Below are positions 34,601-37,690 of a stretch of DNA of 64,000 nucleotides, in pieces. Where the stretch lies: NCBI GenBank assembly GCA_012455605.1, contig GCA_012455605.1_3618.1; one strand, given 5' to 3'. A program made the position numbers and the translations under genes. The stretch is from a phage. Within the stretch, counting starts at the first letter, position 1. Each line of letters begins with the position of its first letter. A model generated the notes under the pieces. That model saw only the letters and a list, made by a program, of their open reading frames with translations, ran no database searches and was not told where the DNA came from.

Positions 34601-34996
34601 TTACTGAAACAGTGCGGATAAATTACCTTCTGGTGGGAACTTATCTGCCAAAAACGGTGTTAGCACAGTAGCCTTCTGAAGATCTGGGGTCCACTCGTTG
34701 TTCAGAACATCCCAGTAGTACGCAATGTTGCTGTGTGGGTGCCGCATTACGAACTTTTTCCCTTCGTAGTCATCTGAAACCTCTACAGAAGAAATAACAA
34801 CAGAATCTTCAAGGGTTTCTTCATAGAAAGATCCACCTTCAAATTTCCAACGAGATGCAAGAGCCCCTGCCTTGAACGCTGCAGATAACGGACTGTCGGC
34901 AAGAACATACATTTCTTGCACTCTGTCGCTGCGATCTTTGCTTCTTACGTTGTATACAGTATCTGAGCTATACTCAACACGGTATAGGCTTACCAT
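34601..34996 (-). CDS. hypothetical protein, paralog of 36808-37206
   Basis: Shared HP.S...YW......WTP core between the two 131-132 aa proteins. Confidence 0.5.
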   Translation of the reverse strand: MVSLYRVEYSSDTVYNVRSKDRSDRVQEMYVLADSPLSAAFKAGALASRWKFEGGSFYEETLEDSVVISSVEVSDDYEGKKFVMRHPHSNIAYYWDVLNNEWTPDLQKATVLTPFLADKFPPEGNLSALFQ

Positions 34997-35355
34997 TACC
35001 GCACCTCCTCAATAACTTCCACATCTGAACCTACCACAAATGCAAAAGGACAGGTTTCATGAAAGATATCCGGATCGCCGCCAAGCTTGCTAACAATTTC
35101 TCCACCACTAATAAACACAAGCTCACCGATATTCATCAGATTGCTGAAATAGTACCCATAATGATTAAAGAATGCAGCAGGGTCAGGTAGACTAGTAGCC
35201 TCAAGCACTACATCGGTTGAGGTTACTTTCTTATCATAACCTCTCGCCTTTTGAGATGCAAGATCTGCAGAATCCTCAGGCGACCGGAGATGCACAGGAA
35301 TTGTTTCACCAATAAAGCGTACTTTCATATTATCACCCAACAACCATAGCTTCAA
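34996..35355 (-). CDS. small acidic protein (C-terminal DVEVIEEVR)
   Basis: Acidic-tail family. Confidence 0.45.
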   Translation of the reverse strand: MKLWLLGDNMKVRFIGETIPVHLRSPEDSADLASQKARGYDKKVTSTDVVLEATSLPDPAAFFNHYGYYFSNLMNIGELVFISGGEIVSKLGGDPDIFHETCPFAFVVGSDVEVIEEVR

Positions 35356-35596: not shown

Positions 35597-35687
35597 ATAG
35601 TATCACCTCTGGTAAGAGATTGGGACTCCTTTCCCACAAATAATTACAAATCTTCCTTAGCGAGGAAGTATGCTAATCCAAGCAGGA

Positions 35688-35957
35688 TTATTCCTCTACA
35701 ATCTCATACACATCGGGAGTTACAATCAACTCTTCTCCGTTACCCGGTGCAACAAACACCACCAAACCTTCAGGTGTGTGCTTTTTAGCCATCTCGATAA
35801 CATCTTCTCGCAGAGCTGGCTCCATCAGATCAAAACCTTCACCTAGGGCATCACGAACCACCTTCATATAGTCCACTGGTTGTGCTTCAACAATCATGCC
35901 TTCAACCAGTCCACAATTTTTGTCTGCCAGCTCAGTTTGGAATAATTTAATTTTCAT
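35688..35957 (-). CDS. small acidic protein (C-terminal VYEIVEE)
   Basis: Acidic-tail family. Confidence 0.45.
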   Translation of the reverse strand: MKIKLFQTELADKNCGLVEGMIVEAQPVDYMKVVRDALGEGFDLMEPALREDVIEMAKKHTPEGLVVFVAPGNGEELIVTPDVYEIVEE

Positions 35958-36094
35958 TTAGAGGTCTCCTCAATTATTTGATATTAATAGCCGTAACCTA
36001 ACACATTAACTACAACTGCGATTGCAAACATAATTTCAAAGCATGCAATCTCTACATTTGGGACTAATTTCTTAATCACACCCATTGTAGCACC

Positions 36095-36415
36095 TCATTC
36101 TCCAAAGTCAATCTTTACTTTGCCTTTCCCCTTACCTTTCTTTCCACCGCATTTAGCCAGCTGACGTGCTGCAACATCTACCATACGGTCAGTTGCCTCG
36201 TAAGCATCACTGCCTTTAGCCTTGGCAATAACTTCTTTTCCAGAATTGTCAAAAATGAACGCCATAACTTCCTGGTGATCATTTTCAACTTTTACACTCA
36301 CACGTGCATAGTTAACAGAGGGATGTAAACGCTCCAGCTTGGACATTTTGCGGGAAATAAAAGATACCATACCTTCTGTGATTTCTACATTGTTGCCAGT
36401 GATTTCAATTTGCAT
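36095..36415 (-). CDS. hpf: ribosome hibernation promoting factor (HPF/RaiA) homolog
   Basis: MQIEITGNNVEITEGM...KLERL...VSVKVEN...KGSDAYEATDRMVDVAARQLAK follows the bacterial HPF/YfiA pattern along its length. Confidence 0.75.
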   Translation of the reverse strand: MQIEITGNNVEITEGMVSFISRKMSKLERLHPSVNYARVSVKVENDHQEVMAFIFDNSGKEVIAKAKGSDAYEATDRMVDVAARQLAKCGGKKGKGKGKVKIDFGE

Positions 36416-36499
36416 AACGTGTTCCTTTTAAGGAAGAGGGAATAACTATCTCTCTTTGAAAACAATGATACTAAATCTGAAGCGTTGTGTCAACAGTTT

Positions 36500-36807: not shown

Positions 36808-37206
36808 TCAGTTTAGCTTTTCTTCAACAACCCCATAACTTGGGGCAGAGTCAAGAGCTTTCTGGTTTAAAAGTGGCGTAGCAGAATCTGCAAACGGTGT
36901 CCAAGTTTTTGTTCTGGCATTCCAGTAATGCTTCACTCTGGAGTCTGGATGCACTATAACAAAAACTTTTTCACTTGTCAACACATTAATTTCTTCTACA
37001 CCCTTGCTGATAATTTCTCCGTCATAGCCCCCAGTCTGGTATCCTTCGTACCAGGTTCTTGCATAGGCATAGCCAGCCTGCCAGCATGCAGCCTCCTCCG
37101 AGGTGGAGACTACGTAGAAGTCTTTCTCAAATTCTGGAATACGCCCTTGCTTTACGCTCCAAGCCCCGCGAATTTTCATTGTAACTTTAAACAGTTTATT
37201 TTTCAC
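36808..37206 (-). CDS. hypothetical protein, paralog of 34601-34996
   Basis: Shared VIVHPDSRVKHYWNARTKTWTP-type core. Confidence 0.5.
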   Translation of the reverse strand: MKNKLFKVTMKIRGAWSVKQGRIPEFEKDFYVVSTSEEAACWQAGYAYARTWYEGYQTGGYDGEIISKGVEEINVLTSEKVFVIVHPDSRVKHYWNARTKTWTPFADSATPLLNQKALDSAPSYGVVEEKLN

Positions 37207-37218
37207 AACGGTTACCCA

Positions 37219-37473
37219 TCACAGCTCTACAATATCTGCATCTGACCCTACCCCAAAGGCATAGTAGGACTCTTCCCCGAAATAATATTCAGGTGCACCA
37301 GCGGTGATCAGGTCTGATCCCAAGATAAACACCACGTTGTGGCCTACATAACTGTGATGTTGCCGCACAGGATCATCCCACGGCAACCCTTCAAAGTATA
37401 CCGCAGGAACGACCTTTCCATTCAGGAAGGATTGTCCCAAGTAGACGTTAGAATCAAGAATTTTAACCTTCAT
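37219..37473 (-). CDS. small protein of the MKVK-LD family (C-terminal DADIVEL)
   Basis: Paralogous to 37463 and 41016 (MKVK.LDS..Y.GQ...GKV, LI.AGA). Confidence 0.5.
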   Translation of the reverse strand: MKVKILDSNVYLGQSFLNGKVVPAVYFEGLPWDDPVRQHHSYVGHNVVFILGSDLITAGAPEYYFGEESYYAFGVGSDADIVEL

Positions 37474-37690
37474 GATCGTCCTCCACTACCTCTACATCCT
37501 CACCTAGGGCAAAGTTATAGGTCCACTGACTGTCAAAGCATTCCTGAGATGCACCAGCGGCAATAAGATCTGCTCCTTTTATTTTTAAAAGGTCAGGGTA
37601 ATCTTCGTTAGGGACAGCAGTAAACACTTTTCCTACTAAAGGCTCCTGACCAATATAGAAGCTTGAATCTAAAACTTTAACTTTCATCAA
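37463..37690 (-). CDS. small protein of the MKVK-LD family (C-terminal DVEVVEDD)
   Basis: Tandem paralog of 37219. Confidence 0.5.
   Translation of the reverse strand: MMKVKVLDSSFYIGQEPLVGKVFTAVPNEDYPDLLKIKGADLIAAGASQECFDSQWTYNFALGEDVEVVEDDHEG

What the first reader, a model, noticed from the sequence alone, without database searches (positions are those of the whole stretch)
36095..36415. Phage-encoded ribosome hibernation factor (HPF/RaiA) homolog inside the small-gene array
The 106 aa product follows the bacterial HPF/YfiA pattern from MQIEITG through RQLAK, then ends in a Gly/Lys-rich tail. A phage HPF could dimerise or inactivate host ribosomes, or protect ribosomes during infection, which is a host-translation manipulation strategy.
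Basis: partly seen in the sequence, partly recalled or inferred. Interest (0 to 1): 0.65.

Follow-up and report, generated by a model that had tools for sequence, protein, structure and literature searches.

The report
Known phage ribosome-hibernation-factor gene (rV5-type)
This is a real, well-conserved phage copy of the bacterial ribosome hibernation factor HPF, but it was published for rV5-like coliphages in 2019, and only its exact role and its odd Gly/Lys tail remain unexplained.

Summary
Window 36095-36415 (minus strand) encodes a 106-aa protein that matches the HPF/YfiA (Ribosomal_S30AE) family over residues 1-90. Pfam gives E=4e-15. It is 43% identical to E. coli HPF and 25% to RaiA. 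The AF2 model superposes on ribosome-bound E. coli HPF at 1.1 A.

The window is a Vequintavirus (rV5-like coliphage). The gene is annotated in about 119 phage records. Mizuno et al. 2019 published it and expressed the rV5 protein. They found it in lysate but not in salt-washed ribosomes, and saw no change in 100S.

New here:
- The core is under strong purifying selection (pN/pS 0.05-0.08 at pS about 0.45).
- Codon composition matches the phage, and a divergent syntenic phage lineage carries the gene at the same position.
- A conserved sigma70-type promoter lies directly upstream.
- No phage carries an RMF homolog.
- Several published ribosome-contact positions are replaced (R17V, Y30L, T53F, H55F, K80V, K89G), while K23, K26, R29, R84, K88 and K92 are kept.
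- The disordered Gly/Lys tail has no counterpart in 139 family representatives.

Most likely it is a reversible, RaiA-like 70S-parking or protecting factor made by host RNA polymerase. That is inferred, not shown. Verdict: already known, function open, modest interest.

The parts
36095..36415 (-). Complete CDS of the phage HPF homolog (106 aa plus TGA stop)
   Evidence: ORF list and sequence. Pfam, NCBIfam, PHROG and PDB matches. 100% identical protein in phages MaxBurger, slur16, A51.2, naswa and SophiaRose.
36146..36415 (-). [quoted passage not shown]
   Evidence: AF2 model with block pLDDT 85-95 across residues 1-90; strands 2-8, 34-43, 48-56 and 61-68, helices 14-30 and 71-90. Foldseek TM 0.82/0.94 and rmsd 1.0 A to V. 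cholerae HPF 4hei, rmsd 1.1 A to E. coli HPF in 6h4n. pN/pS 0.05-0.08.
36095..36145 (-). Lineage-specific Gly/Lys-rich C-terminal tail (residues 91-106, GKKGKGKGKVKIDFGE) plus stop
   Evidence: pLDDT below 50 for residues 94-104. 71% G+K, and no (GK)n repeat in any of 139 family representatives. Length polymorphism and synonymous variation among alleles.
36465..36493 (-). Sigma70-type promoter TTGACA-17 nt-TATCAT directly upstream (rV5 'P144')
   Evidence: 11 of 12 consensus match. Annotated as a sigma70-type promoter, P144, in the rV5 record. The -35 block AAACTGTTGACAC is invariant in 5 vequintaviruses and in the divergent P0004 phage. The extended -35 TGTTGACA occurs 19 times in the window against 3.4 expected.
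36422..36427 (-). Shine-Dalgarno-like AAGGAA, 6 nt before the ATG
   Evidence: Read directly from the sequence. Conserved in the allele alignment.
35984..36085 (-). 33-aa hydrophobic ORF, possibly translationally coupled (GAGGTG overlaps the HPF stop codon)
   Evidence: Annotated in rV5 as ORF145 and as a 'putative membrane protein' in A51.2. Absent or start-less in S127 and in the P0004 phage, so it is not an obligatory partner.
35688..35957 (-). 89-aa acidic ORF, probably the last gene of the same transcription unit
   Evidence: No Pfam match. 60% identical ortholog at the same position in the P0004 phage. Mislabelled 'sigma 54 modulation factor' in some records.
35652..35668 (-). Weak terminator-like hairpin that may close the HPF transcription unit
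   Evidence: Consensus scan. The number of such sites in the region is not above chance, so this is tentative.
36084..36111 (-). Promoter-like TTGACT-16 nt-(TG)TACAAT embedded in the last HPF codons (I-D-F = ATT GAC TTT)
   Evidence: Scan, 10 of 12 with an extended -10. ATTGACTTT is invariant at the DNA level in all 13 alleles while neighbouring codons vary synonymously. In the P0004 phage a similar AAACTGTTTACA element lies just after the stop codon.

Best explanation
This is a functional, phage-adapted copy of the gammaproteobacterial short HPF. Host sigma70 RNA polymerase probably transcribes it from its own strong promoter, as the first gene of a small transcription unit within the array of small genes.

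The product most likely docks in the 30S decoding channel (A and P sites) of vacant host ribosomes, as cellular HPF and RaiA do. It would use the retained basic residues of helices 1 and 2 (K23, K26, R29, R84, K88, K92) and D76.

Its last helical turn is replaced by a flexible polycationic Gly/Lys tail. That tail leaves the domain at the point where RaiA's tail heads toward the RMF and anti-Shine-Dalgarno site. The phage brings no RMF, and several tight-binding contacts are replaced.

The likeliest outcome is therefore weak, reversible, RaiA-like parking or protection of 70S ribosomes. This could compete with host HPF/RMF-driven 100S formation or with ribonuclease attack on 16S rRNA. Promotion of 100S dimers is less likely.

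Shown: family membership, fold, selection, conservation and promoter motif. Inferred: ribosome binding during infection, the role of the tail and the physiological benefit.
For: - Family and fold: Pfam E=4e-15, TIGR00741 above its cutoff, PDB HPF E=4e-15, AF2 model at rmsd 1.0-1.1 A to HPF structures.
- HPF type rather than RaiA.
- Strong purifying selection on the core: pN/pS 0.05-0.08 at pS 0.42-0.49.
- The tail keeps its G/K pattern through synonymous variation at 11 of its codons.
- The gene is present in about 119 vequintavirus records and at the syntenic position in a 64%-identical divergent lineage.
- GC3 is 0.36, like the phage array (0.40), and unlike E. coli hpf (0.49).
- The upstream sigma70-type promoter is conserved and is annotated in rV5.
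- Retained contact residues: K26/R29 and R84 correspond to S. aureus K27/R30 and R87, which are needed for binding (PMC4889938). R84, K88 and K92 correspond to E. coli R83, K87 and K91, described as strictly conserved rRNA contacts (bioRxiv 10.1101/2025.10.07.680626).
- RaiA's longer tail runs toward the RMF site.
- No RMF homolog in 50,697 phage records or in the window.
- Hibernation factors block YbeY and RNase R access to 16S rRNA (PMC7913689).
Against: - Mizuno et al. 2019 expressed the rV5 allele in E. coli. They detected it in crude extract but not in purified 70S or 100S, and saw no change in 100S. The authors themselves list inadequate growth phase, stringent salt washes or genuine loss of binding as possible reasons (PMC6375957).
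- The phage lineage has replaced positions that are basic or aromatic in most family members and that contact rRNA or uS9 in published structures. These are V17 (84% basic in the family), L30 (79% aromatic; stacks on A790), F53 (T53 contacts m2G966), F55, V81 (75% basic; E. coli K80, S. aureus K84) and G90 (89% basic; E. coli K89).
- There are no expression data for this gene during infection.
- The tail's path on the ribosome is not modelled.
Confidence: 0.55

Rival explanations
1. It is a classical short HPF. It cooperates with host RMF to convert 70S ribosomes into inactive 100S dimers. This would shut down translation or impose hibernation on starving infected cells until conditions improve.
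For: It is closer to HPF than to RaiA: 43% against 25% identity, and NCBIfam HPF model 65 bits against RaiA model 23 bits. Its fold is identical to HPF in the 100S structure 6h4n. Host RMF would be available in stationary-phase hosts (established E. coli biology).
Against: [quoted passage not shown] It scores below the HPF equivalog cutoff, 65 against 125 bits. It has lost K80 and K89, two of the five strictly conserved helix-2 basic contacts; the S. aureus equivalent of K80 (K84) is critical for dimerisation. Its extended tail resembles the RaiA arrangement that heads toward the RMF site. No phage carries an RMF.
Confidence: 0.15
2. It is an exapted HPF fold that no longer works through stable ribosome binding. 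The remodelled surface and polycationic tail would serve another target, for example a host RNA or protein, or a decoy or inhibitor role toward a defence or stress factor.
For: The protein was absent from ribosome fractions although expressed. At least six family-conserved contact positions are replaced, and the replacements are shared with the 64%-identical lineage, so they are old and maintained. pN/pS of 0.05-0.08 shows that the derived sequence itself is constrained. The tail is unique within the family. Neighbouring genes are unknown small acidic proteins typical of host-takeover or anti-defence arrays.
Against: Most of the basic patch on both helices is retained, as are D70, Y72, D76 and Q85. 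Salt-washed ribosomes from growing cells are a poor test, as the authors of that study acknowledged. No alternative partner is indicated by any data here.
Confidence: 0.22
3. It is a passenger gene: a captured host hpf with no role in the phage life cycle.
For: Phages occasionally carry host-derived genes. The only functional test was negative.
Against: The core is under strong purifying selection. The gene is retained in about 119 genomes and in a divergent lineage at the same locus. Its codon composition is fully ameliorated. It has a dedicated conserved promoter and RBS. It is only 43% identical to host HPF, so it is not a recent capture.
Confidence: 0.03

Closest known systems
rV5 ORF144 / Vequintavirus 'sigma 54 modulation factor', also annotated HPF or RaiA (ABI79209; Mizuno et al. 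2019, PMC6375957)
   Same: It is the same gene. It is 97% identical to the rV5 protein and 100% identical to the proteins of MaxBurger, slur16, A51.2, naswa and SophiaRose. Locus, promoter and neighbours are the same.
   Different: The window's allele is the minority 106-aa form with GNNVEIT, the canonical loop length of cellular HPFs. rV5 and most alleles have a one-residue deletion here (GNVEIT, 105 aa) plus R22H and V34A. The allele tested experimentally was the 105-aa form.
E. coli short HPF (YhbH; PDB 2rql, 6h4n, 6y69)
   Same: 43% identity over residues 1-92. [quoted passage not shown] The N-terminal MQxxITGNNVEITE motif and K23, K26, D70, Y72, D76, R84, Q85, K88 and K92 are retained.
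   Different: R17V, Y30L, D51M, T53F, H55F, K80V (phage V81) and K89G (phage G90), plus a one-residue insertion (D56) in the beta3-beta4 hairpin. The terminal KDKLKQH is replaced by a 17-residue Gly/Lys tail. pI is 9.0 against 6.5. It scores below the NCBIfam HPF equivalog cutoff. It is expressed from a sigma70-type phage promoter rather than from the rpoN operon.
E. coli RaiA (YfiA, protein Y)
   Same: Same fold and same family. Both have a C-terminal extension beyond the HPF length, and in RaiA that extension runs toward the RMF site and goes with 70S rather than 100S hibernation.
   Different: Only 25% identity, and the RaiA model scores 23 bits against a cutoff of 158. RaiA's tail is acidic (net -3...FVEEVEEE) whereas the phage tail is basic (net +4) and Gly-rich. 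RefSeq's 'RaiA' label on the phage gene is a generic family name, not an ortholog call.
Other phage HPF homologs (Cronobacter phage GAP32, Escherichia phage PBECO4, Xanthomonas phage XaC1)
   Same: S30AE-fold proteins encoded by large myoviruses or jumbo phages.
   Different: They are only 22-26% identical to the window protein in structure-based alignment. They lie in unrelated genomes, and Mizuno et al. place GAP32 elsewhere in the HPF tree, so these are independent acquisitions.

Membership tests
HPF/YfiA (Ribosomal_S30AE, PF02482 / TIGR00741) superfamily | Significant full-length match to the family profile, above the curated cutoff | tested here: met
   PF02482 scores 56.7 bits (cutoff 23.7), matching profile positions 1-83 of 88. 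TIGR00741 scores 56.8 bits (cutoff 40.9).
HPF/YfiA (Ribosomal_S30AE, PF02482 / TIGR00741) superfamily | [quoted passage not shown] | tested here: met
   AF2 model with mean pLDDT 85 and elements in the order E-H-E-E-E-H. The top 35 PDB Foldseek hits are all HPF, RaiA or pY, with TM up to 0.94.
HPF/YfiA (Ribosomal_S30AE, PF02482 / TIGR00741) superfamily | Conserved basic patches on helices 1 and 2 that contact 16S rRNA | tested here: inconclusive
   K23, K26, R29, R84, K88 and K92 are kept. Positions 17, 81 and 90, which are basic in 75-89% of family members, are lost, as is the aromatic residue at position 30.
HPF/YfiA (Ribosomal_S30AE, PF02482 / TIGR00741) superfamily | Binds the 30S decoding channel of ribosomes | not testable with these tools
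   The only experiment, on the rV5 allele with salt-washed ribosomes from growing cells, was negative, and its authors considered it inconclusive (PMC6375957).
Gammaproteobacterial short HPF (NCBIfam NF007780 equivalog) | Score above the equivalog cutoff | tested here: not met
   65.2 bits against a cutoff of 125. It is still the best-scoring specific model.
Gammaproteobacterial short HPF (NCBIfam NF007780 equivalog) | Promotes 100S formation together with RMF | not testable with these tools
   Published expression of the rV5 protein showed no discernible effect on 100S. No RMF gene exists in any phage record or in the window.
RaiA (NCBIfam NF007654 equivalog) | Score above the equivalog cutoff | tested here: not met
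   22.8 bits against a cutoff of 158, and 25% identity to E. coli RaiA.
RaiA (NCBIfam NF007654 equivalog) | C-terminal extension beyond the short-HPF length that reaches toward the RMF site | tested here: inconclusive
   An extension of comparable length exists (17 against 25 residues after the core). It has opposite charge, no sequence similarity and a predicted disordered state, and its path on the ribosome was not modelled.
Long HPF (C-terminal dimerisation domain) | Linker plus a C-terminal domain of about 60 aa that dimerises | tested here: not met
   The protein ends 17 residues after the core and has no second domain.

The most novel reading that the evidence does not exclude
The vequintavirus protein is a neofunctionalised hibernation factor. 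Its remodelled rRNA-facing surface and unique polycationic Gly/Lys tail let it occupy vacant host ribosomes transiently. In doing so it would block host-imposed shutdown: RMF/HPF 100S formation, dormancy-type defences that induce RMF, or nucleases and toxins that cut 16S rRNA near the decoding centre. That would make it an anti-hibernation or anti-defence ribosome guard rather than a hibernation promoter.
Probability: 0.2. Interest if true: 0.65.

Novelty: already known. Interest (0 to 1): 0.3.

Why it matters
A virulent phage that makes its own hibernation-factor homolog, probably from an early-type host-polymerase promoter, is direct evidence that phages manipulate the state of the host ribosome pool. 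That point was already made for rV5 in 2019.

What remains worth knowing is the direction of the effect: promote hibernation, prevent it, or protect ribosomes. The sequence features documented here give concrete handles for that experiment:
- strong constraint on the protein;
- specific loss of tight-binding contacts;
- a unique basic tail;
- no phage RMF;
- two natural alleles that differ in the beta1-alpha1 loop.

Vequintaviruses are abundant, broad-host-range coliphages used in phage-therapy collections, so knowing how they behave on slow-growing hosts has practical value.

Tried and rejected
- The word-indexed homolog search returned only 5 close relatives. The exhaustive representative search was needed to reach cellular HPFs.
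- The IMG/VR scan gave only 2 loci, so alleles for the selection analysis were fetched one at a time from GenBank phage records.
- P0007, a 1160-aa protein with 8 apparent HPF-like stretches, looked like a poly-HPF protein. It is a PPC-domain repeat protein, so the hit is a repeat-driven false positive.
- A 5'UTR hairpin (AGAGGG-N7-CCCTCT) is present in rV5-type alleles. It is not better than shuffles in the window's allele (z=-0.85) and only modest elsewhere. I do not claim it as a feature.
- The shared terminal K-[IW]-D-[FY] motif of the two phage lineages might be a functional peptide. In vequintaviruses, however, the ATTGACTTT that encodes it is invariant even at synonymous sites and coincides with a promoter-like -35 element. 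Protein-level conservation therefore cannot be separated from DNA-level constraint with only two lineages.
- No Rfam family or tRNA was found in the window.
- No RMF-like ORF was found in the window or in any phage record.
It was re-run on A3.
- Literature searches for newer functional work on phage HPFs, and for vequintavirus transcriptomics, found nothing beyond Mizuno 2019 and Mathieu 2020.
- The terminator-like site that would close the transcription unit is weak, and such sites are not enriched over shuffles.

Full report
**1. Observation**

Window 36095-36415 holds an ATG-to-TGA ORF of 106 codons on the minus strand. Its product is MQIEITGNNVEITEGMVSFISRKMSKLERLHPSVNYARVSVKVENDHQEVMAFIFDNSGKEVIAKAKGSDAYEATDRMVDVAARQLAKCGGKKGKGKGKVKIDFGE. 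The gene lies in a run of about 27 small minus-strand ORFs (31.5-40.1 kb), most of them acidic. None of its ten nearest neighbours has a Pfam match.

**2. Family membership**

- Pfam Ribosomal_S30AE (PF02482) matches at E=4.2e-15, 56.7 bits against a cutoff of 23.7. The match covers protein residues 3-89 and profile positions 1-83 of 88.
- NCBIfam's general HPF/YfiA model TIGR00741 is passed, 56.8 against 40.9 bits. The E. coli-type HPF equivalog scores best among specific models but falls below its cutoff (65 against 125 bits). The RaiA equivalog scores 23 against 158 bits.
- phmmer against PDB puts E. coli HPF first (2rql, 4v8h, 6h4n; E about 4e-15, aligned 1-90).
- BLASTP gives 43% identity to E. 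coli K-12 HPF and 25% to RaiA.
[quoted passage not shown] Helix 2 ends at residue 90, and residues 94-104 have pLDDT below 50.
- The model superposes on V. cholerae HPF (TM 0.82/0.94, rmsd 1.0 A) and on E. coli HPF inside the 100S ribosome (rmsd 1.1 A). The top 35 PDB hits are all HPF, RaiA or pY.

**3. Which genome, and what is already known**

The window is a Vequintavirus, an rV5-like coliphage. It is 99.9% identical over 3 kb to phages navn and SophiaRose, among others. The protein occurs in 119 phage records at 93% identity or more. Those records label it 'sigma 54 modulation factor', 'ribosome hibernation (promoting) factor' or 'RaiA'. rV5's own record names it ORF144 and annotates a sigma70-type promoter, P144, in front of it.

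Mizuno et al. 2019 (PMC6375957) listed the rV5-group proteins as virus-encoded HPFs and proposed that they might compete with cellular homologs to prevent ribosome dimerisation. They expressed the rV5 protein in E. coli and detected its peptides in crude extract. They found none in 70S or 100S purified under high-stringency salt, and saw no discernible effect on 100S. They offered growth phase, salt washes or genuine loss of binding as explanations. Mathieu et al. 2020 (PMC6969025) again noted hpf in rV5-like phages. Searches for later functional work found nothing. The finding is therefore already known, and its mechanism is open.

**4. Evidence that the gene is functional and old**

- Thirteen alleles were compared. 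The core (codons 1-88) shows pS of 0.42-0.49 but pN of only 0.024-0.034, so pN/pS is 0.05-0.08.
- GC3 of the gene (0.36) matches the surrounding phage genes (0.40 +/- 0.05) rather than E. coli hpf (0.49).
- In an exhaustive search of 1.84 billion representatives, the nearest sequence outside the rV5 group is P0004 at 64-66% identity. The next is only 44% identical.
- P0004 lies at the syntenic position of a divergent phage of about 126-137 kb. Its neighbouring genes are 29-89% identical to the window's.

The gene was therefore present before these lineages split. It is not a recent host capture, although its affinity is with gammaproteobacterial short HPFs.

**5. Expression signals**

A TTGACA-17 nt-TATCAT promoter (11 of 12 consensus positions) lies at 36493-36465. 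A 5'UTR of about 45 nt follows, with an AAGGAA Shine-Dalgarno sequence 6 nt before the ATG. The -35 block AAACTGTTGACAC is invariant across five vequintaviruses and the P0004 phage. The extended motif TGTTGACA occurs 19 times in the window against 3.4 expected, and 0 of 100 shuffles reached 19. Most copies face the adjacent genes and have plausible -10 hexamers. This supports transcription by host RNA polymerase and is consistent with early expression, although timing was not measured.

Two further ORFs (33 aa, hydrophobic; 89 aa, acidic) and a weak terminator-like hairpin (35668-35652) may complete the transcription unit.

**6. How the protein differs from cellular HPFs**

I aligned the protein with 139 family representatives.

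Retained:
- G7, T13, K23, K26, L27, R29, E44, G59, D70, Y72, D76, R84, Q85, K88 and K92.

Replaced:
- V17, where 84% of the family is basic.
- L30, where 79% is aromatic.
- M51, where 73% is Glu.
- F53, where Thr is commonest.
- A71, T75 and C89.
- V81, where 75% is basic.
- G90, where 89% is basic.
- There is also a one-residue insertion, D56.

Published cryo-EM work on Gram-negative HPFs describes several of these positions as contacts. K80, R83, K87, K89 and K91 (E. coli numbering) are strictly conserved rRNA contacts. Y30 stacks on A790. T53 and position 62 contact m2G966. H55 and E60 contact the uS9 C-terminus (bioRxiv 10.1101/2025.10.07.680626). In S. aureus HPF, K27/R30 and K84/R87 are needed for binding and dimerisation (PMC4889938).

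The phage protein thus keeps three of the five helix-2 basic contacts and both helix-1 residues. It has lost K80, K89, Y30, T53 and H55. P0004 shares V17, L30, F55 and non-basic residues at positions 81 and 90, so these changes are ancestral and maintained.

**7. The tail**

After C89 the helix is broken by G90-G91, and the sequence KKGKGKGKVKIDFGE follows.

- It is 71% G+K with net charge +4. E. coli HPF's terminal seven residues carry +2, and RaiA's 25-residue tail carries -3.
- No (GK)n repeat occurs in any of the 139 representatives, whose maximum G+K content is 44%.
- Among alleles, the number of GK units varies, giving proteins of 103-106 aa. Two records carry one-base indels in the purine run that truncate the tail, and these may be sequencing errors.
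- Eleven tail codons vary synonymously, while only K93R, V100G/I and G105R change the protein.
- P0004 has a different but also basic tail.
- The terminal I-D-F codons (ATTGACTTT) are invariant even at synonymous sites. They coincide with a promoter-like TTGACT-16 nt-TGcTACAAT element, so DNA-level constraint may contribute there.

**8. Mechanism**

Shown here: the protein is an S30AE-fold HPF-family member under strong constraint, with a host-type promoter.

Inferred: it binds the decoding channel of vacant host ribosomes.

Three observations favour a RaiA-like, 70S-level, reversible action over 100S promotion:
- No phage in 50,697 records carries an RMF homolog, nor does the window.
- The tail emerges where RaiA's tail heads toward the RMF site.
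- Expression of the rV5 protein did not change 100S.

Hibernation factors are known to shield 16S rRNA from YbeY and RNase R (PMC7913689). That gives a plausible benefit, namely preserving or keeping available the ribosome pool. The loss of tight-binding contacts together with a fuzzy polycationic tail would fit weak, salt-sensitive binding, and so would reconcile the published negative result. The same facts equally allow an exapted, non-ribosomal role, which I rate at about 0.2. A classical RMF-dependent 100S role is rated at about 0.15, and a passenger gene at about 0.03.

**9. Allele note**

The window carries the minority 106-aa allele with GNNVEIT, the canonical loop length of cellular HPFs. 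rV5, which was the allele tested experimentally, and most other phages have GNVEIT plus R22H and V34A. P0004 also has the short loop, so the extra Asn is probably a secondary gain.

**10. Verdict**

The feature is already known and widely annotated. What remains of interest is the unresolved mechanism and the lineage-specific remodelling documented here. Interest is scored at 0.3.

Noticed in passing
window 35688-35957 (minus strand): Several GenBank records (APCEc02, nom, navn, SophiaRose, S127 BCL3) label this 89-aa acidic ORF downstream of HPF as 'sigma 54 modulation factor'. It has no Pfam match and no HPF similarity, so the label is probably an annotation shift that has been propagated. 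Other records call the true HPF gene 'ATP-dependent protease La type I'.
   Followed up: partly
phage records MG065635, MG065653, MG065655 and others (hits H1, H2, H13 and more): Eighteen unannotated records named 'Campylobacter phage' with host C. jejuni are 98-99.9% identical to E. coli vequintaviruses over this region. The organism or host label looks doubtful; contaminating coliphages are one possibility.
   Followed up: no
window 34601-34996 and 36808-37206; 37219-37473 and 37463-37690; 34996-35355 (all minus strand): The small-gene array contains paralogs. The 131-aa and 132-aa ORFs match at E=5e-10 (28% identity). The adjacent 84-aa and 75-aa ORFs match at E=1e-14 (40% identity), with a weak link to the 119-aa ORF. 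Many of these small proteins are acidic (pI 4.1-4.7) and start with MK[VI]K. Part of the array therefore grew by duplication.
   Followed up: partly
window-wide, e.g. 13654, 14890, 21208 (+); 31300, 34584, 36495, 36983, 44303, 45696, 63714 (-): The extended -35 motif TGTTGACA occurs 19 times against 3.4 expected, mostly with a good -10 hexamer 16-18 nt downstream. Plus-strand copies lie mainly between 5 and 23 kb and minus-strand copies between 28 and 64 kb. This suggests a family of host-polymerase promoters driving two divergent gene blocks.
   Followed up: partly
window 36084-36111 (minus strand): A promoter-like site, TTGACT-16 nt-(TG)TACAAT, is embedded in the last codons of HPF and overlaps the start of the 33-aa ORF. 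The codons ATT GAC TTT are invariant at the DNA level in all 13 alleles examined. The divergent P0004 phage has a similar element just after its HPF stop codon.
   Followed up: partly
L016 (Logan ERR6997038 contig, 125.8 kb), L017, L018: These contigs represent a phage lineage absent from the INPHARED collection. It is syntenic with vequintaviruses in this region but matches them at only 77-83% nucleotide identity over about 28% of a 5-kb segment. It carries a 64%-identical HPF with a different basic tail and lacks the 33-aa ORF.
   Followed up: partly
window 35984-36085 (minus strand): This 33-aa hydrophobic ORF (MGVIKKLVPNVEIACFEIMFAIAVVVNVLGYGY) starts 9 nt after the HPF stop codon, and a GAGGTG Shine-Dalgarno sequence overlaps that stop. 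It is present in most vequintaviruses, but its start codon is lost in S127 BCL3 and it is absent from the P0004 phage.
   Followed up: partly
L006:362-382 (rV5), L005, L010; window about 36433-36455 (minus strand): The 5'UTR of the HPF mRNA contains an AGAGGG-N-CCCTCT hairpin just upstream of the Shine-Dalgarno sequence in rV5-type alleles (z down to -2.9). The stem is weakened in the window's allele (z=-0.85).
   Followed up: partly
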